Source: a virus. Taken from it: a stretch of DNA of 64,000 nt. The notes below the pieces were generated by a model. It was not told the origin of the DNA. It worked only from the letters and a program-made list of their open reading frames with translations, and searched no databases. Positions 3,823 to 34,967 of this stretch are shown here, one piece after another (position 1 is the first letter of the stretch; the number at the start of each line of letters is the position of its first letter). The position numbers were made by a program, and so were the translations under genes. The stretch covers positions 1-64,000 of IMG/VR virus record IMGVR_UViG_3300010885_018971; one strand, given 5' to 3'.

Positions 3823-4557
3823 ATGAAAACGCCAGTAAAAAAAGCACCAGTAAAAAGAGTTGCGGTGAAGAAACCGCCAGTCAAAAAAGTAGCGCCAACC
3901 AGACGCACTAAAACACCCCCAGCACCTATTGTCATTGACGTTAGTAGTACTACTAAATCAGCGTCATCGATGCTTGACAAGGCTATCGATTTAATCAAAT
4001 GGGTTGACAGCCCCTTTAAATTATTTGAAGTTATCCTGTTGGCCAGTGTGTTCTTCTTTGGTTATTTTGCCTGGGACAGTAGAACTGTTATTCTAGATGC
4101 AATAACACAAAGCAGCAAGGTGACCAATCTTAAAGAAGTAAATCATCTTATACCAGTTGCTGCTAGTCTACAAAAAGACCTAGAAGCAGTAACTGTGGTT
4201 GTACACAAAGCTGCTTTGGTAGTTAACACCCGAACAACCATGTTGTCCTTTGGTCCAAAAGGGAGAGACAACACATTAGACGGATTAGTTACCAGTTTGT
4301 TCAACAAAGATCCTGGACGTAATGCTGCAATTATTGGTATGCTCAATGGCGAGGTCACCTGCGATAAACTAGAAGGTACTAGCAAGTCTTCCGAGTGGGA
4401 AGCAAAACAAGGTGCTACATTTATCTGCCGTGGAGGTATTCCTCCGGAAGTCGGCGACTTTGATGGATATGTAGCAGTTGGATTTAAAACAGAACCAGCT
4501 GACCTAAGTGTGGTCAAGACTAGAATTAATCTAGCTACCGCTGACATGTCGCAATGA
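3823..4557 (+). CDS. Putative T4 gpT-like holin (basic N-terminus, single TM, GAF-like C-terminal domain)
   Basis: Topology and C-terminal C..IP....G.V.V.F pattern resemble T holin; no search run. Confidence 0.45.
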   Translation: MKTPVKKAPVKRVAVKKPPVKKVAPTRRTKTPPAPIVIDVSSTTKSASSMLDKAIDLIKWVDSPFKLFEVILLASVFFFGYFAWDSRTVILDAITQSSKVTNLKEVNHLIPVAASLQKDLEAVTVVVHKAALVVNTRTTMLSFGPKGRDNTLDGLVTSLFNKDPGRNAAIIGMLNGEVTCDKLEGTSKSSEWEAKQGATFICRGGIPPEVGDFDGYVAVGFKTEPADLSVVKTRINLATADMSQ

Positions 4558-14402: not shown

Positions 14403-15164
14403 ATGTTTTGGTTTAAGAGAAAAGATATTGTTATTGATTGTTTCATAGCCGATGAATTGATATACAATAATTTTAAACTGGATAAAGCGAATAAATTTAT
14501 TCCACAAGAATGGAAAAATCTTCCGCCCCATCATGAGTTTAAATCAAACTCAGATCCAGAATCAACTTTAACTGTTGAGATAGGCACTCTAAAGAAATGT
14601 AAAGGGTTTATTGATTTATTCTCAAGAGGATTTATTCTACCATACTGGGCAGATACGCAAGTACAGGCTTTTACGGATAGGTATGTTTTCGCAGGGCAGT
14701 ATAAATCAGAACCAAATTCTAATTTTAGTGGACATGCTCCAGCACAATATGGTGAAATTTACACAGACTGTGCACAGATTAAATTGGAATGCCCATGGTT
14801 TCTGCAAGAGAAGACTGGAGTTAAATTTGCTTGGAATGAATGCACTTGGCATAATACTCATCGCGCAGGGATTTTTCACATACCTTCTGCTGTTATAGAT
14901 TTTAAATATCAATTTTTGGTTAATGTAAATATCTTTGTTAAGAAAGACACAAGTTTAAAATTAAATGCTGGTGATCCCTTGGTGCATATTCTACCGCTAT
15001 CAGAAAATAATGTTGTACTAAAACATCATTTGGTGAGTCAAACTGAGTATGATAGATTTCAAAATAACTACATTGAATCTATCGGATATAAAAATGCAAG
15101 AGAAATCAGAAAAGATTTAAAATTTAACACTAAAGGTAAATGTCCTTTTGGATTTGGAAAATGA
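14403..15164 (+). CDS. Hypothetical beta-rich protein ending GKCPFGFGK
   Basis: T.K.C.GF.D....GF, G.PLVH.LP; family not securely recognised. Confidence 0.7.
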   Translation: MFWFKRKDIVIDCFIADELIYNNFKLDKANKFIPQEWKNLPPHHEFKSNSDPESTLTVEIGTLKKCKGFIDLFSRGFILPYWADTQVQAFTDRYVFAGQYKSEPNSNFSGHAPAQYGEIYTDCAQIKLECPWFLQEKTGVKFAWNECTWHNTHRAGIFHIPSAVIDFKYQFLVNVNIFVKKDTSLKLNAGDPLVHILPLSENNVVLKHHLVSQTEYDRFQNNYIESIGYKNAREIRKDLKFNTKGKCPFGFGK

Positions 15165-15616
15165 AACAAGAATGGATTGATGCATTCATGGACACTGCGG
15201 AGAGATTCGCAGATTTGTCTAGTGCAATTCGTTTGAAGGTAGGTGCAGTAGTTGTAAAAGACAATCGCATCATCTCAATTGGATATAATGGAACACCTGC
15301 TGGATGGGATAACTGTTGTGAAGAAGTGGTTGATGTTAGTCCCAATGATCCAAGATATGACTACAATCATTTCACTAAAGAATTGAAAACAAAAGATGAG
15401 GTTATTCATGCTGAAGCAAATGCTATTCTCAAACTTGCACGTGATGGTGAATCAGGCAATGGTGCCAGTTTATTCTGTACTCATGCTCCTTGTTTGCATT
15501 GCGCTAAGTTGATCTATGGTGCAGGTATCTCGAGTGTTTACTATCGTAATGCATATCGTAACAATGATGGAATTGATTTTTTAAATAAGTGTAATATTAA
15601 TGTTCTCGCAGGATAA
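15161..15616 (+). CDS. cd: dCMP deaminase
   Basis: KVGAV, GYNG, HAEANA, PCLHC zinc motifs. Confidence 0.93.
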   Translation: MKQEWIDAFMDTAERFADLSSAIRLKVGAVVVKDNRIISIGYNGTPAGWDNCCEEVVDVSPNDPRYDYNHFTKELKTKDEVIHAEANAILKLARDGESGNGASLFCTHAPCLHCAKLIYGAGISSVYYRNAYRNNDGIDFLNKCNINVLAG

Positions 15617-16157
15617 AATTATTTCATACCAGTTAGATAGTAATGAATTTACTGATGTTCAACGGGAACTTGATGCCTTCTATGAACTTGATATTCCATA
15701 TGGAAACCCGCACGATAAAAGTGCATTGGAAAGAGGACTGAACATCCATATTCCAAAGCTACATATTAGTTATGTGTCATTCGGGGAGAACGTAATAGAT
15801 ATGCATAACTTAAAATACTTGAAAAAAATTATTTTAAAATATGCACCAACAGATAATTGCTACATTGGTCAGAGTTGGGCAACTGACATGAAGGTTGGAA
15901 CAATGGCAGCATTGCACAATCATGTTTTTTTGGAGAATGATTTGTTTTTATGTGGGGTTTACTACCATGATGTAGATCCATCTGATACGCAAATACACTT
16001 TGCATCAGATGAGATGCAAACACAATTTGTAGCATTCGAAATGAAACCTGGAAAACTAATGTTTTGGCCAACTGAGTACGTGCATGGTATACCATTGAAA
16101 TCAAATCCCACAAAAAGAAGATCAGTTTCTTTCAATTTATACAAAAATGAAGACTGA
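15600..16157 (+). CDS. Putative 2OG-Fe(II) oxygenase
   Basis: SW, HNH, GVYY, PG.L.FWP...H, RRSVSFN. Confidence 0.75.
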   Translation: MFSQDKIISYQLDSNEFTDVQRELDAFYELDIPYGNPHDKSALERGLNIHIPKLHISYVSFGENVIDMHNLKYLKKIILKYAPTDNCYIGQSWATDMKVGTMAALHNHVFLENDLFLCGVYYHDVDPSDTQIHFASDEMQTQFVAFEMKPGKLMFWPTEYVHGIPLKSNPTKRRSVSFNLYKNED

Positions 16158-16176
16158 CGTGTCCTAAATAGAATTA

Positions 16177-16237
16177 CCCTACTGCAAAAAGGGTAATTAA
16201 AATTTAACTTTACTTTTATTCAAAAAGGCTGTATAAT
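16177..16237 (+). promoter_or_regulatory. Promoter of tRNA operon 1 (dyad, -35 TTTACT, -10 TATAAT)
   Basis: CCCT-N9-AGGG 16177-16193; TTTACT 16209; 17 bp; TATAAT 16232. Confidence 0.88.
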
Positions 16238-16244
16238 TTCTACT

Positions 16245-16358
16245 ATGAAATCGATATCCTGTTTAGCGTCAAGAAAACACCTACCACTCAATAGTGGCTG
16301 GTCGTATGCACGCCCACAGTTTGAGATTACAATGGATCTTGGGGGTTTTGGAAAGTAA
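16245..16358 (+). CDS. Leaderless attenuator leader peptide, 37 aa (MKSISCLASRKHLPLNSGWSYARPQFEITMDLGGFGK)
   Basis: ATG 7 nt after -10 box, no SD; 32 distinct codons; stop lies inside antiterminator 5' arm. Confidence 0.75.
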   Translation: MKSISCLASRKHLPLNSGWSYARPQFEITMDLGGFGK

Positions 16359-16391
16359 AGTGTAACAGATAGTTTACTTCCCAAAGCCCTC
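16341..16391 (+). promoter_or_regulatory. Antiterminator hairpin
   Basis: GGGGGTTTTGGAAAGTAAA (16341-16359) pairs with TTTACTTCCCAAAGCCCTC (16373-16391): 18 of 19 positions incl. 2 G-U. Confidence 0.8.
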
Positions 16392-16422
16392 TGAGATGAA
16401 AGTCCAGAGGGTTTTTTGTTTT
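16383..16422 (+). terminator. Intrinsic terminator, mutually exclusive with the antiterminator
   Basis: CCCTCTG-a-GAT-GAAA-GTC-CAGAGGG followed by TTTTTTGTTTT. Confidence 0.88.
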
Positions 16423-16439
16423 AGGGCATCGTCCCAAAT

Positions 16440-16455
16440 TGTTCTTTAAAAATTT
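16440..16455 (+). promoter_or_regulatory. rrn-type boxA antitermination site
   Basis: TGTTCTTTAAAAATTT vs rrn boxA TGCTCTTTAACAATTT; identical copy at 17755. Confidence 0.75.
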
Positions 16456-16469
16456 GCGTACCAAATTGT

Positions 16470-16545
16470 AGGGGATTCGCCAAGTCGGTAAGGCACTGGA
16501 TTTTGATTCCAGCATGCGGTGGTTCGAGCCCATCATCCCCTGCCA
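16470..16545 (+). tRNA. tRNA-Gln(TTG)
   Basis: Cloverleaf, CTGGA-TTTTGAT-TCCAG, CCA. Confidence 0.93.
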
Positions 16546-16549
16546 AATT

Positions 16550-16625
16550 GCGTCCTTAGCTCAGCTGGTAGAGCAGTAGACTTTTAATCTATTGGTCGTG
16601 GGTTCGAATCCCGCAGGACGCACCA
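16550..16625 (+). tRNA. tRNA-Lys(TTT)
   Basis: Cloverleaf, CTTTTAA loop, CCA. Confidence 0.95.
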
Positions 16626-16658
16626 TATAAAAATGTATTACACAGTATGTTTTTATAT

Positions 16659-16734
16659 GGTGATTGTAGCTCAATGGTAGAGTCCAGGATTGTGATTCCT
16701 GTTGTTGTGAGTTCGAATCTCATCAGTCACCCCA
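16659..16734 (+). tRNA. tRNA-His(GTG)
   Basis: Encoded G-1 and C73, TTGTGAT loop, CCA. Confidence 0.93.
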
Positions 16735-16736
16735 AT

Positions 16737-16812
16737 GCCAAGGTAGCTCATCAGGTAGAGCACCAGACTGAAAATCTGGGTGTGGTTGGTTCGAGTCCAA
16801 CTCTTGGTACCA
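16737..16812 (+). tRNA. tRNA-Phe(GAA)
   Basis: CTGAAAA loop, CCA. Confidence 0.93.
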
Positions 16813-16817
16813 GTTAT

Positions 16818-16892
16818 AGCCAATTAGCTCAGTGGTAGAGCAATCGCTTGATAAGCGATAGGTCAGTGGATCGTAACCACTATTGGCTACCA
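16818..16892 (+). tRNA. tRNA-Ile(GAT)
   Basis: TTGATAA loop; atypical T-loop ATCGTAA; CCA. Confidence 0.9.
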
Positions 16893-16898
16893 AGTTAT

Positions 16899-16990
16899 GG
16901 AAAGTAATGCAGGTGCGTTGGTGCGCCGACCAGCCTTGAAAACTGGGTTCTCAGAAATGGGATGGGGTTCGACTCCTCTGCTTTCCGCCA
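16899..16990 (+). tRNA. tRNA-Ser(TGA)
   Basis: CTTGAAA loop, long variable arm, G73, CCA. Confidence 0.88.
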
Positions 16991-16995
16991 GTTAT

Positions 16996-17070
16996 ACCCT
17001 CTTAGTAAAATGAATATTACACATCGCTACGAACGATGAAGTGGTGGTTTGATTCCATCAGAGGGTACCA
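16996..17070 (+). tRNA. tRNA-Arg(ACG)
   Basis: CATCG-CTACGAA-CGATG; atypical D and T loops; CCA. Confidence 0.85.
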
Positions 17071-17075
17071 AGTTA

Positions 17076-17165
17076 GGAAGATGGGCAGGACGGTAATGCA
17101 GCAGATTGCTAATCTGTAGGGTGTAGTAATACGCTCACAGGGTTCGATTCCCTGATCTTCCACCA
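17076..17165 (+). tRNA. tRNA-Ser(GCT)
   Basis: TTGCTAA loop, long variable arm, CCA. Confidence 0.9.
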
Positions 17166-17171
17166 GAGTTT

Positions 17172-17256
17172 GCGAGTATGGTGAAATAGGTAGACACAAG
17201 AGACTTAAAATCTCTCGACGCAAGTCGTGCTGGTTCGATTCCTGCTACTCGCACCA
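17172..17256 (+). tRNA. tRNA-Leu(TAA)
   Basis: CTTAAAA loop, variable arm, CCA. Confidence 0.93.
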
Positions 17257-17257
17257 T

Positions 17258-17334
17258 GTCACTTTAGCTCAGTAGGATAGAGCAACAACCTTCTAAGTTG
17301 TGGGTCAGTGGTTCGAATCCACTAAGTGACGCCA
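17258..17334 (+). tRNA. tRNA-Arg(TCT)
   Basis: CTTCTAA loop, CCA. Confidence 0.93.
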
Positions 17335-17340
17335 GATATT

Positions 17341-17415
17341 GGGCTGATAGCTTAATGGTAAAGCAGTCGACTCATAATCGATTGAGTCTAGGTTCAATTC
17401 CTAGTCAGCCCACCA
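17341..17415 (+). tRNA. tRNA(CAT), probably Ile2 (lysidine-modified, reads ATA)
   Basis: GTCGA-CTCATAA-TCGAT resembles bacterial Ile2; separate fMet and Met genes are present. Confidence 0.8.
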
Positions 17416-17420
17416 GATAT

Positions 17421-17495
17421 GCACGTGTGACTGAATGGTAAGGTAGCGGTTTGCAAGTCCGATGTTCACAGGTTCGATTCCTGTCACGTGCTCCA
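17421..17495 (+). tRNA. tRNA-Cys(GCA)
   Basis: GCA anticodon, U73, weak anticodon stem, CCA. Confidence 0.82.
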
Positions 17496-17497
17496 GA

Positions 17498-17644
17498 TTA
17501 TTTTTTATTGTAAAGTTCGAAAAGAGTTTTTACTTTTTCTTCTAACACAGAAAGACGATTGTCAGCTTTTGCAAGTACAATCACCAATGTGATGAATCCA
17601 AGAAAGACTGGCCACAACTTCATGATGTTATCGATTAGATCCAT
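17498..17644 (-). CDS. Small single-TM/coiled-coil protein (48 aa), late, antisense within the tRNA array
   Basis: MDLIDNIMKLWPVFLGFITLVIVLAKADNRLSVLEEKVKTLFELYNKK; GGAGGA RBS; TATAAATA upstream. Confidence 0.8.
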   Translation of the reverse strand: MDLIDNIMKLWPVFLGFITLVIVLAKADNRLSVLEEKVKTLFELYNKK

Positions 17645-17662
17645 GGTTCCTCCATTTTGCTC

Positions 17663-17670
17663 TATTTATA
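17663..17670 (-). promoter_or_regulatory. T4-type late promoter TATAAATA
   Basis: Exact consensus on minus strand 18 nt before ATG. Confidence 0.75.
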
Positions 17671-17673
17671 ATA

Positions 17674-17770
17674 CCACTTTGCAAAAAGGGTCATTAAAAT
17701 ATCGCTTGCCTTTTATTGATAGTTGAGGTATAATAACTGTAAGTTAGTTGAAATTGTTCTTTAAAAATTT
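17674..17770 (+). promoter_or_regulatory. Promoter of tRNA operon 2 plus boxA
   Basis: TTGCCT 17706, 17 bp, TATAAT 17729; boxA 17755-17770; no leader ORF or terminator. Confidence 0.85.
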
Positions 17771-17846
17771 GCTCGGTTCGTCTATCGGCTAGGACACTGC
17801 CCTTTCACGGCAGGAAGGAGGGGTTCGATTCCCCCACCGAGTACCA
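17771..17846 (+). tRNA. tRNA-Glu(TTC)
   Basis: CTTTCAC loop, CCA. Confidence 0.92.
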
Positions 17847-17847
17847 G

Positions 17848-18057
17848 ATTTAATTGCATTGGGTTGCCAACCCCAGTAGGCAATGTGATTGTGAATGTTA
17901 TGCGACGGCATGGCCACGATTGTATTGCACGAAACCTTGAGATCGTATCAGGAGGACGCTGGACAAAGTTGGATCGTAATGTGGTAACAACCAATCGTCA
18001 GACGATGACGTGGTAAACCCTGAGTGGGTGTTGTCTATCATCCCAGTGTAATTAAAT
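17848..18057 (+). ncRNA. Putative structured RNA A (~210 nt)
   Basis: Ends pair over 16 bp (ATTTAATTGCATTGGG / CCCAGTGTAATTAAAT); lies between tRNAs. Confidence 0.55.
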
Positions 18058-18059
18058 GT

Positions 18060-18184
18060 GGTATTAGTTTTGCTGATGTAAGCCATGGGTAATCGTAACA
18101 CCTGAGTAACTCTGTCAATAAACGGTAGTGTGGCCACCAATTCCGTTGAGGCTTAGCAAATAGTGCGTCAGCAAAACTAATATC
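18060..18184 (+). ncRNA. Putative structured RNA B (~125 nt)
   Basis: About 20 bp closing stem GTATTAGTTTTGCTGATGTA / TGCGTCAGCAAAACTAATAT. Confidence 0.55.
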
Positions 18185-18186
18185 AT

Positions 18187-18271
18187 GGAGACACGGCAAA
18201 GTTGGAGAGTTGCGGCAGACTGTAAATCTGTTCTTTCGGGTGAGTAAGTTCGAATCTTACTGTCTCCACCA
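18187..18271 (+). tRNA. tRNA-Tyr(GTA)
   Basis: CTGTAAA loop, variable arm, CCA. Confidence 0.9.
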
Positions 18272-18341
18272 AAACAAATGATCGTAACAGATCCAATGTT
18301 TGTTAGTTTCAATGGGTGTTATAGAAACTATCTGGAATTTA

Positions 18342-18416
18342 GGTCTCAAAGTGTTCATGGACGCACACAACACTGTCACTGTTGAAGAAGGGGATCGTTA
18401 CCCCTTGAGACCGCCA
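18342..18416 (+). tRNA. tRNA-Asp(GTC)
   Basis: CTGTCAC loop, G73; atypical T-loop ATCGTTA. Confidence 0.87.
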
Positions 18417-18421
18417 GTTAT

Positions 18422-18496
18422 CGCAGAGTAGAGAAGTAGTATCTCATCAGGTTCATACCCTGAAGGTCGGTGGTGCGATTCCATCCTCTGCAACCA
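18422..18496 (+). tRNA. Initiator tRNA-fMet(CAT)
   Basis: C1-A72 mismatch; TCAGG-TTCATAC-CCTGA. Confidence 0.85.
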
Positions 18497-18754
18497 AAAC
18501 ACGTGGCTTTGTTCGCCACTACTGTGACCCGCAGGATAGAAGTGCCGTGACTGGCAAGGGTGGTTCTGAAAGAAAACGTAGCCATGCGAGTGGAGCGAAG
18601 TCCTTTCACTGATGTAAAAGTCAGCAGTCTTACCGAACTGGCGTTGGCAATACGATAGTCCTATGTGTGGCAAGTTGGTGGAAGGTACGTGTGATGGGTG
18701 CGATAGCGTCGTATCTTGATGTGCTATAATTACAACGACATATAGGAAGCACCT
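18497..18754 (+). ncRNA. Putative structured RNA C (~255 nt)
   Basis: GC-richer spacer with helices GGCTTTGTTC/GAGCGAAGTC, CTGAT/GTCAG, CCTATGTGT/ACATATAGG. Confidence 0.45.
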
Positions 18755-18837
18755 GCCCCGATGGTGGAATTGGTAGACACGCTGGTCTTAGAAGCCAGTA
18801 CTTCGGTGTGCGAGTTCGAGTCTCGCTTGGGGCACCA
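18755..18837 (+). tRNA. tRNA-Leu(TAG)
   Basis: CTTAGAA loop, variable arm, CCA. Confidence 0.93.
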
Positions 18838-18845
18838 AGAATTTT

Positions 18846-18920
18846 GCCTTGTTAGCTCAGTGGTAGAGCGTCTCGTTTACACCGAGAGGGTCGGCAGTTC
18901 GAAACTGTCACAAGGTACCA
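18846..18920 (+). tRNA. tRNA-Val(TAC)
   Basis: TTTACAC loop, CCA. Confidence 0.93.
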
Positions 18921-18922
18921 AT

Positions 18923-18997
18923 GGTGATGTAGCACAGTGGTAGTGCAATTGCTTCATACGCAATTGGTCGTTGGTTCAAATCCAACCATCACCACCA
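18923..18997 (+). tRNA. tRNA-Met(CAT), elongator
   Basis: ATTGC-TTCATAC-GCAAT, paired 1-72, CCA. Confidence 0.85.
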
Positions 18998-19013
18998 TTA
19001 TAAGTAGAATTAT

Positions 19014-19090
<77 letters not shown>

Positions 19091-19095
19091 AGTTT

Positions 19096-19170
19096 GCCGA
19101 ATTAGCACAGTGGTAGTGCAATCGCCTTGTAAGCGATAGGTCGTCAGTTCGAATCCGACATTCGGCACCA
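19096..19170 (+). tRNA. tRNA-Thr(TGT)
   Basis: CTTGTAA loop, CCA. Confidence 0.93.
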
Positions 19171-19176
19171 AGTTAT

Positions 19177-19251
19177 TCCAGAGTAGCACAGCGGTAGTGC
19201 AGTTGACTGTTAATCAATTGGTCGTAGGTTCGATCCCTGCCTCTGGAGCCA
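19177..19251 (+). tRNA. tRNA-Asn(GTT)
   Basis: CTGTTAA loop, CCA. Confidence 0.94.
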
Positions 19252-19256
19252 ATATT

Positions 19257-19330
19257 GGGGGATTAGTATAATGGGATTACGGCAGCTTTGCAAGCTGTTT
19301 ATGAGAGTTCGATTCTCTCATCCTCCACCA
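19257..19330 (+). tRNA. tRNA-Ala(TGC)
   Basis: G3-U70, TTTGCAA loop, CCA. Confidence 0.92.
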
Positions 19331-19364
19331 GTTTTTGTTAGATAAGTAAATAAAGGAAAATAGT

Positions 19365-19550
19365 ATGACTAATCATGAAACATTAAAGGCGCAGTTCGAA
19401 GTGTATTTGGCAGAGAACGAGAAATTTACAACCAAAGGTGTGAAGGCATCTGCGGCACGTGCACGTAAAGCATTGCAGGAAATTAGCAAAGCAATTCGTG
19501 AGCGTCGCAAAGAAATCACAGCTGAGAAAGAGGCATTGGCAGCAAAATGA
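19365..19550 (+). CDS. Histone H1-like (Hc1-type) small basic protein
   Basis: KF..KGVKASAARARKAL.E..K.....RKEI. Confidence 0.75.
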   Translation: MTNHETLKAQFEVYLAENEKFTTKGVKASAARARKALQEISKAIRERRKEITAEKEALAAK

Positions 19551-19756
19551 ACGGTAAAGGTAGCAAGGCAAGACCATTCAGTGTAACTCAACAAGAATAT
19601 GAATCTCGTTGGGATGCAATCTTTGGACGGGACATAAAAGAAGATAACACAGGCACTAGTAAGAATGAGTTTCAGGATGTATTGTCAACAGAAGATTGTA
19701 TGACAATGGAAATGCCAGGAACAATTGGTGGTGCTAAAATTGTTTTTAAAGAGTAA
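19547..19756 (+). CDS. Hypothetical protein (GKGSK.RP...WD.IFG)
   Basis: Coupled ORF. Confidence 0.65.
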   Translation: MNGKGSKARPFSVTQQEYESRWDAIFGRDIKEDNTGTSKNEFQDVLSTEDCMTMEMPGTIGGAKIVFKE

Positions 19757-19759
19757 AGT

Positions 19760-19833
19760 ATCTCGCTGGTGTAATGGCAGCACGTGGGTCTCCAAAACCC
19801 TTGGTCGGAGTTCGAGTCTCTGGCGGGATGCCA
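19760..19833 (+). tRNA. tRNA-Trp(CCA)
   Basis: CTCCAAA loop, G73, CCA. Confidence 0.9.
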
Positions 19834-19836
19834 ATT

Positions 19837-19910
19837 GCGGGTATGATGTAAAGGTAACCTGAATCCTTGCCAAGGATTACATCCGAGTTCGATTCTCGGT
19901 ACCCGCTCCA
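19837..19910 (+). tRNA. tRNA-Gly(GCC)
   Basis: TTGCCAA loop, U73, CCA. Confidence 0.9.
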
Positions 19911-19918
19911 GGAATTTT

Positions 19919-20599
19919 ATGAAATCACTAATTATAATTTTATTTCTATTGGCGATTGGTGTGCATGCTAAACCAGTTGAGTCATATGTTTTATATGATG
20001 CTGATAATCATTCTGTGGTTACTGGTACAAACATACACGAGATAAAACCTGTGGCCAGTTTAACAAAGATAATGACCGCAATGGTCGCTATTGATAGTGG
20101 CAACTACAACAGAGAATTACTTGAACGATTACTCATTCGTTCAGACAATACAGCAGCAGATCTGCTCGCAACACAATATCCAAACGGCAAACTAAATTTT
20201 ATTCGTGCAATGAATAATAAAGCACTGCAACTTGGATTACAAGAAACCAGTTTCCATGACCCAAGTGGGCTAAGCATATTCAATCGAAGCACTGCCAGAG
20301 AATACGTTGAGGTTGTGATTGCGGCAAATACGTATCCACTCATTAGAGAGATATCATCCACTCCCGAAAAGAAAATCAGTAGTAATAAAAAGTTTCAGAT
20401 ATTACATAATACGAATACATTATTAAAAGAGTATGACGAAATTGTATTAAGTAAAACTGGATTCACCAGCCATGCTGGTAGATGTTTAGCACTCTCAGTA
20501 GAGAATCAAAGTAAGAAACATATCATTGTTATACTTGGTGAACCAACTCCACAAAAGAGAAGCGAGATCGCTAGAAATTTAATTAAAATGACACAGTAA
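19919..20599 (+). CDS. Serine D-Ala-D-Ala peptidase (peptidase S11, PBP7/PbpG-like)
   Basis: Signal peptide; ASLTK (SxxK), SDN, KTGFT. Confidence 0.9.
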   Translation: MKSLIIILFLLAIGVHAKPVESYVLYDADNHSVVTGTNIHEIKPVASLTKIMTAMVAIDSGNYNRELLERLLIRSDNTAADLLATQYPNGKLNFIRAMNNKALQLGLQETSFHDPSGLSIFNRSTAREYVEVVIAANTYPLIREISSTPEKKISSNKKFQILHNTNTLLKEYDEIVLSKTGFTSHAGRCLALSVENQSKKHIIVILGEPTPQKRSEIARNLIKMTQ

Positions 20600-20610
20600 G
20601 GGGTATTATC

Positions 20611-21093
20611 ATGCGTAGAATCGACATCGATGAAGTAAAAGCATTCATCGAAGCGCAAAGTCCAACTACTAAAATTTACATTGGTGGTGACTCTGAACGA
20701 TTAATCATAGGAAACGAATGGTACGCAGATTATACTTTGGCAGTTGTTGTTCACATCAATGGTAACAGTGGCTGTAAAATTTTTGGTGAGTCAGTTAGAG
20801 AAAGAGATTACGATCAGAAGAAGAGCAGACCACGTATGCGTCTAATGAATGAGGTATACAAGATTGCAGAATTGTATTTGAAGTTACAAGATGTTTTGGA
20901 AGATAGAGAAGTAGAAGTGCACTTGGATATCAACCCAAACGAAATGTATGGTTCTTCATGCGTGATCAATGAAGCAGTGGGCTATATAAAAGGTATGTGT
21001 AATGTGGTACCATTTGTTAAACCAAATGCTTTTGCGGCATCATATTGCGCAGACAGAATGAAAGATATTCTTTCACATAAGATAGCAGCTTAA
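20611..21093 (+). CDS. YkuK-type RNase H-like protein
   Basis: IYIGGDS, RL..EV, EVHLDIN, FAAS..AD. Confidence 0.8.
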   Translation: MRRIDIDEVKAFIEAQSPTTKIYIGGDSERLIIGNEWYADYTLAVVVHINGNSGCKIFGESVRERDYDQKKSRPRMRLMNEVYKIAELYLKLQDVLEDREVEVHLDINPNEMYGSSCVINEAVGYIKGMCNVVPFVKPNAFAASYCADRMKDILSHKIAA

Positions 21094-21094
21094 T

Positions 21095-21168
21095 GCGGGA
21101 TTCGTAAAATGGTATTACCTTAGCCTTCCAAGCTAAAGTCGGGAGTTCGATTCTCCCATCCCGCTCCA
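21095..21168 (+). tRNA. tRNA-Gly(TCC)
   Basis: CTTCCAA loop, U73, CCA. Confidence 0.93.
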
Positions 21169-21181
21169 ACCAAGGATTATT

Positions 21182-21394
21182 ATGACAGATGAAGTTGAAC
21201 AACTAAAGCCCATGACCTTCTCAGAGAAGTGGCATGCGGAGAAGCTACTAAAGAAATCCAAAAAGAAAGCCAAGAAAGCACTGATTGAGAAAGGCTATGA
21301 TCCAACATCAGCCTCATCAATGGTCAAGAAGGCACTCAAGAAAATTGTCAACGACAATAGACCTGTGAAGAAAGCAGCTGGACGTGGCGGATAA
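21182..21394 (+). CDS. Lys-rich hypothetical protein
   Basis: AAGGA RBS. Confidence 0.65.
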   Translation: MTDEVEQLKPMTFSEKWHAEKLLKKSKKKAKKALIEKGYDPTSASSMVKKALKKIVNDNRPVKKAAGRGG

Positions 21395-21827
21395 AAGATA
21401 TTTCCTTTTGACGACTGAGTGGAAGCATGGGTTCAAGCATCATAATGCAATTGCTGATCATGGCTTGAAGTCAATGGTTAATTTCAGTCGATCAATAGAC
21501 TATATAAAAGATGTCACGTATAAAGAAATTAGTCCCGAGAAGTACGAACAACTGATGTATGGAGATGACGATGGACGAGATAACCAAAGAGAAACACAGC
21601 AAGAGAATCCACCAAAAAGAAGTCGTGCAAAAGCGAAAAGCAAAGATAGCAAAAGCATACGGAATCCCAGTGGAAAATCCACACGAACTACTGGATCACA
21701 GCCCAGTAAGTTGCTCAAGTCCACTGTGCGTAATGTGTCGAAATCCAAGAAAGACATTCAAAGAACTGACGATACAGGAGCAAAGAAATTATCAAAACCT
21801 AGACGAACCAAGGGATCGTCACAGTAA
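21384..21827 (+). CDS. Hypothetical protein; basic C-terminal half overlaps next gene
   Basis: GTG start overlapping previous stop; globular-looking N-terminal 60 aa. Confidence 0.5.
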   Translation: MADKRYFLLTTEWKHGFKHHNAIADHGLKSMVNFSRSIDYIKDVTYKEISPEKYEQLMYGDDDGRDNQRETQQENPPKRSRAKAKSKDSKSIRNPSGKSTRTTGSQPSKLLKSTVRNVSKSKKDIQRTDDTGAKKLSKPRRTKGSSQ

Positions 21828-21846
21828 TGGATTACCAGTAGAATGA
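21571..21846 (+). CDS. Small Cys-cluster protein (C-x4-C-x2-C)
   Basis: GGAGA RBS; H...SCSSPLCVMCRNPRK. Confidence 0.65.
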   Translation: MDEITKEKHSKRIHQKEVVQKRKAKIAKAYGIPVENPHELLDHSPVSCSSPLCVMCRNPRKTFKELTIQEQRNYQNLDEPRDRHSNGLPVE

Positions 21847-22103
21847 TACCACTATTTGTCAGCGTAGATAAGGCGAAGGAAAGATCTGCCATATGTAAGA
21901 CCTGCGATCAGTTCAAAGCAGGATTTTGTATGGAGTGTGGTTGTTTATTAAAGTTCAAGGTGCTGTTTGCAGCAGGTGATTGTCCAGTTGGTAAGTGGAA
22001 CATGGAACGAGCAACAGACATAATGGTACATACAATCGCGGATGATCTTTCCACAATCGAAGAGAGCACCACATCATGGGATAACTGGAAAGCAATAGAA
22101 TGA
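21843..22103 (+). CDS. Cys-rich metal-binding protein
   Basis: CKTC, CMECGC, CPVGKW. Confidence 0.7.
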   Translation: MIPLFVSVDKAKERSAICKTCDQFKAGFCMECGCLLKFKVLFAAGDCPVGKWNMERATDIMVHTIADDLSTIEESTTSWDNWKAIE

Positions 22104-34417: not shown

Positions 34418-34585
34418 ATGTTATGTGATAAAGTTGAGATTGGACCCAGTATTATTATTCTAGACAAAGAGGTGACGTTAAGTTCGTTGCCTGGATGGGT
34501 AGAAGGTGATATGTTCAAATTGATTATTGGTGCAAATGGAAATGTTACATTTATCAAGGTTACCCAACCTGGAGGTGTAATGTAG
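34418..34585 (+). CDS. Small AbrB-like protein (55 aa)
   Basis: Read by hand; GW.EGD.F; TTGCTT-17-TATAAT at 34388-34416. Confidence 0.45.
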   Translation: MLCDKVEIGPSIIILDKEVTLSSLPGWVEGDMFKLIIGANGNVTFIKVTQPGGVM

Positions 34586-34848
34586 TATTGCTGTATGAAA
34601 TGATGTAAAAGGTGTTCTGGACGGGAGTTCGATTCTCCCCACCTCCACCAAAATTCATTATTGTGTAGTAGTGAGTTTTGGTGGGGGTGACTAGGTTTCG
34701 ACAGGGCAATAAGTAACTGAGTGGACAGCACGAGACAGATACTCGTAAAAAGTAAATAAAGTAAACGCAAACGACTCACAGTTCGCATTGGCAGCCTAAA
34801 CGCTGACTAGGGTTTCGGTAGGTTTCCTCGTAACAGAATAACCTACCA
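34586..34848 (+). ncRNA. ssrA: Circularly permuted (two-piece) tmRNA, tag ANDSQFALAA
   Basis: T-arm plus CACCTCC-A-CCA (ends 34650) precedes GGGGGTGA..TTCGAC (34683); G3-U70; hairpin spacer; tag frame 34767-34799. Confidence 0.9.
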
Positions 34849-34967
34849 CTGTTAGTTAGTCTATGCTTGATGCCAGCAACCGATACCTTAGTATCTCGTA
34901 CTGAACACATTGCGACGAATCTGACAAGTTGATAGTATTTTTTAAAACTTTTTCTAAGGAAATTCAA

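What the first reader, a model, noticed from the sequence alone, without database searches (positions are those of the whole stretch)
16245..16358. Leader peptide is a codon sampler matched to the tRNAs it controls
Counted by hand: the 37 sense codons use 32 different triplets and 19 of 20 amino acids (no Val), with four Ser, four Leu and all four Gly codons. Classical leaders repeat one amino acid; this one does the opposite. Each of the 12 tRNAs in operon 1 has a readable codon in it: AAA (Lys), TCA/TCG (Ser-TGA), ATA (Ile2), TGT (Cys), TTA (Leu-TAA), AGA (Arg-TCT), CAC (His), AGT (Ser-GCT), CGC (Arg-ACG), CAG (Gln-TTG by wobble), TTT (Phe), ATT (Ile-GAT). Codons 2-12 are almost entirely operon-1 codons, including the typically rare ATA, TTA and AGA. 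Inference: loss of nearly any tRNA species would stall the ribosome and trigger the switch, and phage tRNAs would then close a negative feedback loop.
Basis: partly seen in the sequence, partly recalled or inferred. Interest (0 to 1): 0.88.

Follow-up and report, generated by a model that had tools for sequence, protein, structure and literature searches.

The report
All-amino-acid leader gating phage tRNAs

Summary
The counts are exact: 37 sense codons, 32 distinct, 19 amino acids, no Val.

Real genes of this phage almost never reach this diversity (1 of 21,752 windows). Composition-matched stop-free shuffles reach it 6.5% of the time.

The decisive evidence is comparative. About 90 viral contigs carry the same module: sigma-70 promoter, ATG at the transcription start, a 37-45 codon frame, a hairpin holding the stop codon, a terminator, a boxA-like element, then tRNA-Gln.

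- All 54 distinct peptides have 19 or 20 amino-acid types.
- Outside one RNA hairpin the peptide drifts (pN/pS about 1).
- Single Tyr, Cys, Gln and His residues change position but are almost never lost.
- Tree simulations never reproduce this (0 of 4,800), and the other five frames do not show it.

So the "sampler" idea holds at the amino-acid level.

- Synonymous-codon diversification is absent.
- There is no specific match to operon 1: 17 codons are read by operon 1 and 18 by operon 2, and Val in the leader is unrelated to tRNA-Val in the first block.
- Asp sits where a stalled ribosome could not signal.

Nothing here is experimental. This scan has already reported the same family on at least seven other genomes. 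I found no publication describing it.

The parts
16209..16237 (+). Sigma-70 / T4-early-type promoter: -35 TTTACT, 17-nt spacer, -10 TATAAT
   Evidence: 10 of 12 consensus matches. The same promoter at the same spacing is present in the homologous loci. A twin promoter lies at 17706-17734, in front of operon 2.
16245..16358 (+). Leader ORF, 37 sense codons plus TAA. The ATG lies 7 nt after the -10 hexamer, so there is no room for a Shine-Dalgarno sequence and the mRNA is inferred to be leaderless.
   Evidence: The frame is open in 60 of 60 distinct homologous DNAs, while frames +1 and +2 carry 3-4 stops each. The ATG sits 6-7 nt after the -10 hexamer in most family members.
16280..16302 (+). 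Hairpin 1 inside the ORF, over the codons for HLPLNSGW. Possibly an RNA polymerase pause hairpin (inferred).
   Evidence: RNAalifold consensus, with two compensatory pair changes in L036. The palindrome reads PLxSG on both strands, so this 'conserved peptide motif' is largely an RNA constraint.
16309..16312 (+). Invariant CACG about 10 nt after hairpin 1. Candidate pause site (speculative).
   Evidence: Invariant columns C65 A66 C67 G68 in alignment A1. The function is inferred only.
16342..16390 (+). Hairpin A, the predicted antiterminator. Its 5' arm contains the last codons and the TAA stop; its 3' arm overlaps the terminator's 5' arm.
   Evidence: Before the terminator's 3' arm is made, an upstream hairpin holds a median 9 of 13-14 nt of the terminator 5' arm in 64 of 65 distinct homologs. 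It starts 14-45 nt (median 18) before the stop codon. The upper-stem sequences differ between clades but the hairpin is kept.
16387..16422 (+). Intrinsic terminator: stem CCCTCTG / CAGAGGG, an 11-nt loop, then TTTTTTGTTTT
   Evidence: dG about -18 kcal/mol when a ribosome is placed on the stop codon. Nine stem variants with compensatory changes occur across the family.
16424..16457 (+). Small covarying hairpin (GGGC ATCG TCCC type) followed by a boxA-like element. The element is repeated exactly at 17751-17772, before operon 2.
Evidence: Here I confirmed only the exact repeat and its conservation in relatives.
16470..17492 (+). tRNA operon 1: Gln, Lys, His, Phe, Ile, Ser-TGA, Arg-ACG, Ser-GCT, Leu-TAA, Arg-TCT, CAT (Ile2 or Met), Cys
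   Evidence: tRNA-Gln(TTG) is the first gene after the leader in 77 of 79 homologous loci, a median of 110 nt after the stop codon.

Best explanation
The ORF is the leader peptide of a ribosome-mediated transcription attenuator that heads the phage's tRNA array.

How it would work. Host RNA polymerase starts at, or one base before, the A of the ATG, and a ribosome translates the leaderless frame. If the ribosome keeps pace, it is sitting on the last codons and the stop, which form the 5' arm of hairpin A, when the polymerase makes the terminator. The terminator then folds and most transcripts end at about 16420. If the ribosome lags or is absent, hairpin A forms first and holds the terminator's 5' arm. 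Transcription then reads through the boxA-like element into the tRNA genes.

What it would sense. The frame carries nearly every amino acid about once, rather than a run of one. It would therefore report general decoding speed, or the shortage of most single aminoacyl-tRNAs. It would not report one amino acid, or the first operon's tRNAs in particular.

Shown here: the anatomy, its conservation, the frame-specific maintenance of the ORF and of its all-amino-acid composition, and the predicted two-state fold.

Inferred: the transcription start, translation, the pause, the polarity of the switch, and any response to tRNA shortage.
For: 1. Architecture is conserved in 87 usable viral loci, found through two independent sequence anchors. 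The order is promoter, ATG 6-7 nt after the -10 hexamer, ORF of 37-45 codons, stop codon inside a hairpin, terminator 20-27 nt after the stop, then tRNA-Gln first in 77 of 79 loci.

2. Translation is supported by frame-specific openness. Frame 0 has no stop in 60 of 60 distinct DNAs, while frames +1 and +2 have 3.2 and 3.8 stops on average and are never open.

3. Composition. All 54 distinct peptides have 19 types (25 peptides) or 20 types (29 peptides). The phage's proteome gives 15.3 types per 40 residues, and even uniform random peptides reach 20 types only 3.6% of the time.
- Tree-based neutral simulations at the amino-acid level (3,600 runs) and the nucleotide level (1,200 runs) give 17.0-18.4 types and never reach the observed 19.55.
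- The other five reading frames give 16.4-17.6 types.
- Rare residues move but are kept. Tyr is always present exactly once, at five or more different alignment positions.
- Cys is either N-terminal (11 peptides) or after GW (42), and never both.
- Gln is N-terminal only in 33, C-terminal only in 17, in both in 3 and in neither segment in 1; that one, L036, supplies Gln at the motif position.
- In L036 the motif's His became Gln, and a His appears upstream.
- The window and its closest relative L001 swap Tyr and Phe between two sites.

4. The peptide sequence itself is nearly unconstrained (pN/pS 0.72, 1.22 and 1.11 outside hairpin 1), as expected for a leader and not for a working protein.

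5. The switch. The terminator has dG about -18 kcal/mol and is bistable with hairpin A in the full fold. The leader's fold has z = -3.4. Terminator stems covary.

6. No Rfam, PHROG or phage-GenBank match offers another identity.
Against:
- The transcription start and leaderless translation are inferred from promoter spacing only.
- Single codons per amino acid should give a much weaker response than the codon runs of classical leaders.
- Val is absent from 24 of 54 leaders although every complete array has tRNA-Val.
- With the last 8 codons excluded as lying under the ribosome that covers hairpin A, Asp is unsensed in 47 of 54 leaders and Tyr in 11. The sensed set falls to a mean of 18.3 types.
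- Hairpin A and the terminator overlap only partly, and equilibrium folds favour either state.
- No anti-antiterminator was found, so an untranslated leader would read through. That makes this a different logic from trp.
- The family is one lineage, so the number of independent relocation events is small, and my neutral models are simple.
Confidence: 0.55

Rival explanations
1. The leader is a codon-level sampler tuned to the 12 tRNAs of operon 1. Loss of nearly any tRNA species stalls the ribosome, and the phage's own operon-1 tRNAs close a negative feedback loop.
For: - 12 of 12 operon-1 tRNAs have a readable codon, and 9 of codons 2-12 are operon-1 codons.
- Leader codons are readable by the phage tRNA sets slightly more often than synonymous randomisation predicts: 394 of 469 against 369-376 expected.
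- In four-fold boxes 76% of leader codons end in A or G, the codons read by the phage's U34 tRNAs, against 47% in the phage's genes.
Against: - Operon 2 is covered just as well: 12 of 13 tRNAs, and 18 codons against 17.
- The distinct-codon count given the peptide is as expected for uniform synonymous use.
- No single leader is significantly enriched for phage-readable codons (P = 0.05-0.6).
- Val in the leader is unrelated to tRNA-Val in the first block (counts 13/10/13/3).
- Relatives with a different tRNA order, or with no tRNA-Lys detected in the fetched locus, keep Lys codons (L034 and L042).
- The operon-1 flavour of codons 2-12 goes along with a low-GC 5' end across the family: 66% against 38% operon-1-type codons, at GC 0.32 against 0.46.
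Confidence: 0.15
2. The ORF is translated and the switch is real, but it is not a shortage sensor. It acts as a fixed attenuator or an infection timer. For example, it could set a basal read-through level, or respond to a phage or host factor, to RNA polymerase modification, or to global shut-off of host translation. On this view the even composition serves only to avoid any amino-acid-specific bias.
For: - Single codons give weak sensitivity.
- The default state without a ribosome is read-through.
- The terminator loop motif (UGAAA core) and the following hairpin loop (CAUCG) are conserved beyond what a plain terminator needs, which could mark a factor-binding site.
Against: - Selection that keeps each rare residue present, with residues relocating rather than disappearing, is hard to explain unless each amino acid matters.
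- No candidate factor or binding-site repeat was identified.
Confidence: 0.15
3. The 37-residue product is the functional part. It is either a small trans-acting phage protein with its own promoter and terminator, or a nascent arrest peptide whose HLPLxSGW motif stalls the ribosome.
For: - The motif (K/R)HLPL(L/N)SGW is nearly invariant, with synonymous variation, even in the 33 sequences ascertained only through the terminator.
- The ORF is kept in all relatives.
Against: - pN/pS is about 1 outside the motif.
- The C-terminus changes frame and sequence (GFGK, GLDKK, GLASR, RVRQVN) while the RNA stem it encodes is preserved.
- The motif is a palindromic hairpin that reads PLxSG on both strands, and it shows compensatory base changes with amino-acid replacement in L036.
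- There is no PHROG family.
- An all-20 composition is not expected of a 40-residue functional peptide.
Confidence: 0.08
4. A non-coding small RNA of about 175 nt, comparable to the stable RNAs of T4 tRNA clusters, whose open frame is fortuitous. A variant of this rival is a gene on the opposite strand.
For: - The RNA is strongly structured (z = -3.4) and has its own promoter and terminator.
- There is no Shine-Dalgarno sequence.
- An antisense frame is partly open (54 codons in the window).
Against: - Frame 0 is open in 60 of 60 sequences, with a fixed ATG and a fixed stop position, while the other sense frames are never open.
- The all-amino-acid property is specific to frame 0.
- The antisense frame is stop-free in only 17 of 60 sequences and has no conserved start.
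Confidence: 0.04

Closest known systems
Leader-peptide transcription attenuators of enterobacterial amino-acid operons (trpL, hisL, pheL, leuL; multivalent thrL and ilvL). Based on established knowledge.
   Same: A short ORF lies between the promoter and an intrinsic terminator. An upstream hairpin competes with the terminator. The ORF ends in that hairpin's 5' arm, so ribosome position decides the fold.
   Different: - There is no run of regulatory codons; instead nearly every amino acid occurs about once.
- The start is leaderless.
- No anti-antiterminator was detected, so an untranslated RNA would read through.
- The regulated genes are tRNAs, not biosynthetic enzymes.
- The element is encoded by a phage.
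- No Rfam leader family matches.
Corynebacterium glutamicum ilvBNC attenuator (PMC11857589)
   Same: The paper discusses its leader peptide as translated from a leaderless mRNA. This shows that attenuation can work from a 5'-terminal start codon.
   Different: It is specific for branched-chain amino acids, has a three-hairpin model that includes an anti-antiterminator, and belongs to a bacterial biosynthetic operon.
Ribosome-mediated attenuators that respond to general translation inhibition, such as antibiotic-inducible leaders like bmrB-bmrCD and vmlR. Based on my own knowledge; not checked here.
   Same: They work in the same way: any slowing of the ribosome on a short leader shifts a terminator/antiterminator balance.
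   Different: They control resistance genes and respond to drugs. Their leaders are not known to be kept compositionally complete.
Long tRNA array (trn operon) of Anabaena PCC 7120, silent until translational stress (PMC8421152; PMC10272220)
   Same: An accessory tRNA array of 26 genes whose expression rises when translation is impaired.
   Different: Control is by a ribbon-helix-helix repressor, TrcR, and not by a translated leader.
T-box riboswitches
   Same: They sense tRNA charging and act through terminator/antiterminator choice.
   Different: They bind one uncharged tRNA directly and involve no translation. No T-box match was found here.
The same leader family on other genomes, noted earlier in this scan (e1-5727326, e1-5727336, e1-5766329, e1-5742719, e1-5358231, e1-5726991, e1-5725468)
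   Same: The same module, and the same reading as an all-amino-acid leader before phage tRNAs. L003 and L007 share 92-99 of about 100 short words with those notes.
   Different: Those are unreviewed AI notes on other contigs. This window's member is the shortest (37 codons) and lacks Val.

Membership tests
Ribosome-mediated (leader-peptide) transcription attenuator | A short ORF between the promoter and the regulated genes, on the same strand | tested here: met
   ORF 16245-16358 lies between the promoter (16209-16237) and tRNA-Gln (16470). The same holds in 87 loci.
Ribosome-mediated (leader-peptide) transcription attenuator | An intrinsic terminator between the leader ORF and the regulated genes | tested here: met
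   GC-rich stem plus U-tract at 16387-16422. dG is about -18 kcal/mol. Nine covarying stem variants occur in relatives. This is prediction only.
Ribosome-mediated (leader-peptide) transcription attenuator | An alternative upstream hairpin that sequesters part of the terminator (antiterminator) | tested here: met
   The hairpin holds a median 9 of 13-14 nt of the terminator's 5' arm in 64 of 65 distinct homologs. Full folds are bistable.
Ribosome-mediated (leader-peptide) transcription attenuator | The end of the ORF overlaps the antiterminator, so that a ribosome at the stop codon prevents it from forming | tested here: met
   The stop codon lies in the 5' arm of hairpin A in all members. The arm begins 14-45 nt (median 18) before the stop.
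Ribosome-mediated (leader-peptide) transcription attenuator | A cluster of codons for the regulating amino acid(s) | tested here: not met
   The opposite pattern is found: 19-20 amino-acid types, with Tyr, His, Trp and Cys at about one copy each.
Ribosome-mediated (leader-peptide) transcription attenuator | A pause hairpin or anti-antiterminator (the 1:2 pairing) that synchronises ribosome and polymerase | tested here: inconclusive
   Hairpin 1 (16280-16302) is conserved with compensatory changes and is followed by an invariant CACG. It does not pair with hairpin A, and pausing cannot be tested here.
Ribosome-mediated (leader-peptide) transcription attenuator | Termination depends on translation of the leader and on aminoacyl-tRNA supply | not testable with these tools
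Curated RNA families (Rfam leaders, T-box, known phage sRNAs) | A covariance-model match | tested here: not met
   No hit in 16150-16470 at E up to 1.
Known phage protein family | A profile match, or purifying selection along the peptide | tested here: not met
   No PHROG match at E up to 1. tblastn against 50,697 phage records gives only chance hits, E of 1 or more. pN/pS is about 1 outside hairpin 1.

The most novel reading that the evidence does not exclude
A lineage of freshwater T4-like phages controls its whole tRNA array with a 'pangram' attenuator. This is a leaderless leader peptide that selection keeps stocked with essentially every amino acid. A shortage of almost any aminoacyl-tRNA would then switch on the phage's replacement tRNAs. 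Such shortages include those caused by host tRNA-cleaving defence nucleases or by phage-induced decay of host tRNAs. This would be an inducible counter-defence and a general sensor of translation capacity, built from the classical attenuation parts.
Probability: 0.35. Interest if true: 0.9.

Novelty: new variant of a known kind. Interest (0 to 1): 0.78.

Why it matters
Leader-peptide attenuation is known as a device that reads one amino acid, or a few, to control that amino acid's own biosynthesis. A leader kept complete for all amino acids and placed before tRNA genes would turn the same parts into a gauge of overall decoding capacity.

It would also show that phage tRNA arrays are regulated rather than simply expressed. 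This bears on recent work showing that phage tRNAs rescue infection from tRNA-cleaving defences such as retron effectors and PARIS (PMC11555353, PMC11464382). It is also directly testable with a template of about 230 nt in a defined coupled transcription-translation system.

Searches of the held literature found no description of leader-peptide control of tRNA genes. The nearest case, the Anabaena trn operon, uses a repressor protein.

Tried and rejected
- blastn of the leader against 50,697 phage records: no match.
- Relatives sought through the upstream 185-aa protein in viral contigs: none.
- tblastn of the peptide against the phage records: only chance hits, so no cultured carrier was found.
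- PHROGs scan of three family peptides: nothing.
- Rfam at E up to 1 over 15000-22000: only tRNAs and weak noise, nothing at the leader.
- The motif pattern in 185,579 bacterial and archaeal genomes gave 52 hits. That is about the number I estimated by hand for chance. None has the ORF-plus-terminator architecture, so this serves as a negative control.
- The antisense ORF (54 codons in the window) was rejected. It is stop-free in only 17 of 60 relatives and has no conserved start.
- In one search the column-profile model could not be calibrated to the tree, because it saturates. It is therefore equivalent to an independent column shuffle, and I treat it as such.
- MAFFT plus RNAalifold did not recover hairpin A in the consensus, because its upper stem differs in sequence and length between clades. 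I folded each sequence on its own instead.
- I considered treating the low pN/pS of the HLPLxSGW motif (0.17) as evidence for a functional peptide. I rejected this because my search pattern enforced those residues, and because the motif is an RNA palindrome.

Full report
**Context**

The window is the first 64 kb of a 90.8-kb contig. It comes from an uncultured T4-like phage. Its baseplate-hub protein is at most about 40% identical to those of Synechococcus, Methylophilales, Caulobacter and Vibrio T4-like phages.

Twenty-four tRNA genes are called by ARAGORN, and two more are seen with Rfam models: Cys at 17421-17492, and a Ser-TGA-type gene at 16899-16986. Together they cover all 20 amino acids.

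The finding lies between the last upstream gene, which ends at 16157, and the first tRNA, Gln-TTG at 16470.

**The observation**

The counts are exact: 37 sense codons, 32 distinct, 19 amino-acid types, Val missing. Four Ser, four Leu and all four Gly codons are used. All 12 operon-1 tRNAs have a readable codon.

How unusual this is depends on the null:
- Among 21,752 windows of 37 codons from this phage's own genes, the mean is 23.5 distinct codons, and only one window reaches 32.
- Stop-free dinucleotide shuffles of the ORF average 28.6 and reach 32 in 6.5% of cases. They reach 19 amino-acid types in 13%, and 12/12 tRNA coverage in 3%.

On its own, then, the sequence shows only that the frame is not codon-biased like a gene.

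The claimed specificity for operon 1 fails at once. Operon 2 is covered 12 of 13, and the leader has 17 operon-1 codons against 18 operon-2 codons.

**Anatomy**

- A promoter, TTTACT, 17-nt spacer, TATAAT, ends at 16237. The ATG follows 7 nt later. There is no room for a ribosome-binding site, so the mRNA would be leaderless; this is an inference from spacing.
- The stop codon sits in the 5' arm of a long hairpin at 16342-16390.
- The 3' arm of that hairpin shares its last bases with the 5' arm of a terminator, CCCTCTG...CAGAGGG plus TTTTTTGTTTT, at 16387-16422.
- A small hairpin and a 22-nt element follow.
- Operon 2 has the same promoter and element but no leader.

**Relatives**

The exact terminator hairpin occurs in 44 viral contigs. 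A degenerate pattern over the hairpin inside the ORF finds 92. Together they give 87 usable loci, 60 distinct leader DNAs and 54 distinct peptides of 37-45 residues.

All have the same order: promoter; ATG 6-7 nt after the -10 hexamer in most loci; ORF; stop inside a hairpin; terminator 20-27 nt after the stop. tRNA-Gln is then the first gene in 77 of 79 loci with downstream sequence.

Frame 0 has no stop in any of the 60 DNAs. Frames +1 and +2 have 3.2 and 3.8 stops on average and are never open. An antisense frame is only sporadically open and has no conserved start.

The same pattern in 185,579 bacterial and archaeal genomes gives 52 hits, about the number I estimated by hand for chance. 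None has this architecture.

No cultured phage, PHROG family or Rfam family matches.

**The switch**

I folded 65 distinct 3' parts one by one.
- With a ribosome placed on the stop codon, the terminator forms, with median dG -18 kcal/mol.
- Before the terminator's 3' arm exists, an upstream hairpin containing the stop codon holds a median 9 of the 13-14 nt of the terminator's 5' arm. This happens in 64 of 65 sequences.
- In the full folds, either state can win.

Terminator stems covary, with nine variants including CCCTCTA/TAGAGGG, CCCCGA/TCGGGG and CCCTAG/CTAGGG. The upper stem of the antiterminator differs in sequence between clades but is kept.

This is the geometry of a ribosome-mediated attenuator. 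It has one difference from trp: I found no pairing that would restore termination when the leader is not translated.

**Is it a sampler?**

Here the relatives decide.

Every one of the 54 distinct peptides has 19 types (25 peptides) or 20 types (29 peptides). Windows of 40 residues from the phage proteome have 15.3 types, and reach 19 in 2.1% and 20 in 0.3% of cases. Even peptides drawn uniformly from 20 amino acids reach 20 types only 3.6% of the time.

The property is not simply inherited with a conserved sequence:
- Outside one eight-codon stretch, pN/pS is 0.72, 1.22 and 1.11.
- Mean peptide identity is 60%, and the minimum is 31%.
- Rare residues change place without being lost. Tyr is present exactly once in every peptide, at five or more different alignment positions.
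- Cys is N-terminal in 11 peptides and follows GW in 42, and never both.
- Gln is N-terminal only in 33, C-terminal only in 17, in both in 3 and in neither segment in 1; that one, L036, supplies Gln at the motif position.
- In L036 the motif's His became Gln, while a His appears three residues upstream.
- The window and its nearest relative, L001, exchange Tyr and Phe between two sites.

Simulations along the family tree keep invariant columns fixed and are calibrated to the observed divergence.
- At the amino-acid level (three replacement models, three roots, 400 runs each) they give 17.0-18.4 types.
- At the nucleotide level, with the frame kept open (four roots, 300 runs each), they give 17.4-17.9 types.
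- None of the 4,800 runs reaches the observed mean of about 19.55, or has all tips at 19 or more.

The other five reading frames of the same DNA give 16.4-17.6 types. The breadth is therefore a frame-specific property that appears to be maintained.

**Amino acids, not codons**

Given each peptide, the number of distinct codons is what uniform synonymous choice gives (P = 0.135 for the window, 0.07-0.9 across homologs).

Leader codons are readable by the phage's own tRNAs, under strict wobble, in 394 of 469 cases against 369-376 expected. No single leader is significant.

In four-fold boxes, 76% of leader codons end in A or G, the codons read by the phage's U34 tRNAs, against 47% in the phage's genes. 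The sequences are related and constrained by RNA structure, so I regard this as suggestive only.

There is no link between Val in the leader and tRNA-Val in the first block (counts 13, 10, 13, 3).

The operon-1 flavour of codons 2-12 holds across the family (66% against 38%). It goes along with a low-GC 5' end, 0.32 against 0.46, and operon-1 tRNAs mostly read A/U-rich codons (my reading of the anticodons; not tested separately).

**The conserved motif**

(K/R)HLPL(L/N)SGW looks like a functional peptide, but it overlies a hairpin, CCRCU-N4-AGUGG. That hairpin shows two compensatory pair changes in L036, where the residues change to QLPLNNGW. As a palindrome it reads PLxSG on the opposite strand as well.

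The C-terminus switches between GFGK, GLDKK, GLASR and other endings, while the RNA stem it encodes is preserved, including a compensated one-base length change.

The peptide as such therefore seems unimportant. This argues against a trans-acting protein or a sequence-specific arrest peptide. It fits a pause-type hairpin followed by an invariant CACG, but that last point is speculation.

**Weak points of the model**

- A ribosome stalled within about the last eight codons would itself cover the antiterminator's 5' arm and so mimic completion. Asp lies only there in 47 of 54 leaders, including codon 31 of the window. Tyr lies only there in 11.
- Without the tail, the mean is 18.3 types. Val is missing in 24 of 54.
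- One codon per amino acid should respond only to severe shortage.

**Comparison with what is known**

The element works like the classical leader-peptide attenuators, and it meets four of their structural criteria by prediction and covariation. It fails the criterion of clustered regulatory codons, so I classify it as a new variant rather than a member of any described leader family.

- Leaderless leader peptides are discussed for the C. glutamicum ilvBNC attenuator (PMC11857589).
- An accessory tRNA array induced by translational stress is known in Anabaena, but it is controlled by the repressor TrcR (PMC8421152, PMC10272220).
- Six literature searches found no report of leader-peptide control of tRNA genes.

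Within this scan the same family has already been reported on at least seven other genomes, with the same reading, and analogous operon-specific leaders have been reported in other phages. Those are unreviewed notes. I reached the all-amino-acid result before reading them.

**Verdict**

The element is a sampler of amino acids at the head of the whole array. It is not a codon sampler matched to operon 1.
- The mechanism is plausible, and its anatomy is well supported. It is untested.

Noticed in passing
window 34558-34890 (+): A phage-encoded tmRNA gene with tag peptide ANDSQFALAA, called by ARAGORN. Together with the complete tRNA set and the attenuator, it suggests heavy investment in keeping translation running.
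   Followed up: no
window 16436-16457 and 17751-17772 (+): An exact 22-nt repeat (AAATTGTTCTTTAAAAATTTGC) lies just before the first tRNA of both operons. Variants such as GTTCTTTAACAA occur at the same place in relatives. A covarying hairpin with a conserved CAUCG loop precedes it.
   Followed up: partly
window 16394-16404 (terminator loop) and homologs: The terminator loop keeps a UGAAA core (GAUGAAAGU, CUGAAAAG, AUGAAAAU) while the stem covaries. This is more conservation than a plain terminator needs, and it remains unexplained.
   Followed up: no
window 16899-16986 and 17421-17492 (+): ARAGORN misses two tRNA genes. One is a long-arm Ser-TGA type, which scores 34.9 bits under Rfam's tRNA-Sec model, below threshold. 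The other is tRNA-Cys, at 54.2 bits. ARAGORN also often misses the Ser-TGA gene in related loci.
   Followed up: partly
L087 (oriented coordinates 4403-4479) and L089 (12080-12153): Two related phage contigs carry tRNA genes with stop-codon anticodons in their arrays: CTA, which reads TAG, and TTA, which reads TAA. These are candidate suppressor tRNAs.
   Followed up: no
window 17850-18186 and 18497-18754 (+): Spacers of 250-340 nt inside the tRNA cluster have no credible ORF and no Rfam match at E up to 1.
   Followed up: no
window 17498-17644 (-): A 48-aa ORF lies on the opposite strand, wedged between tRNA-Cys and the operon-2 promoter. It is the only minus-strand ORF of note near the tRNA genes.
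   Followed up: no
L071 (IMGVR_UViG_3300008119_000039): A degenerate family member. Its start codon is GTG instead of ATG, its C-terminus is altered, it has no terminator, and a Shine-Dalgarno-led gene follows instead of tRNAs. It may be a decayed leader after a rearrangement.
   Followed up: no
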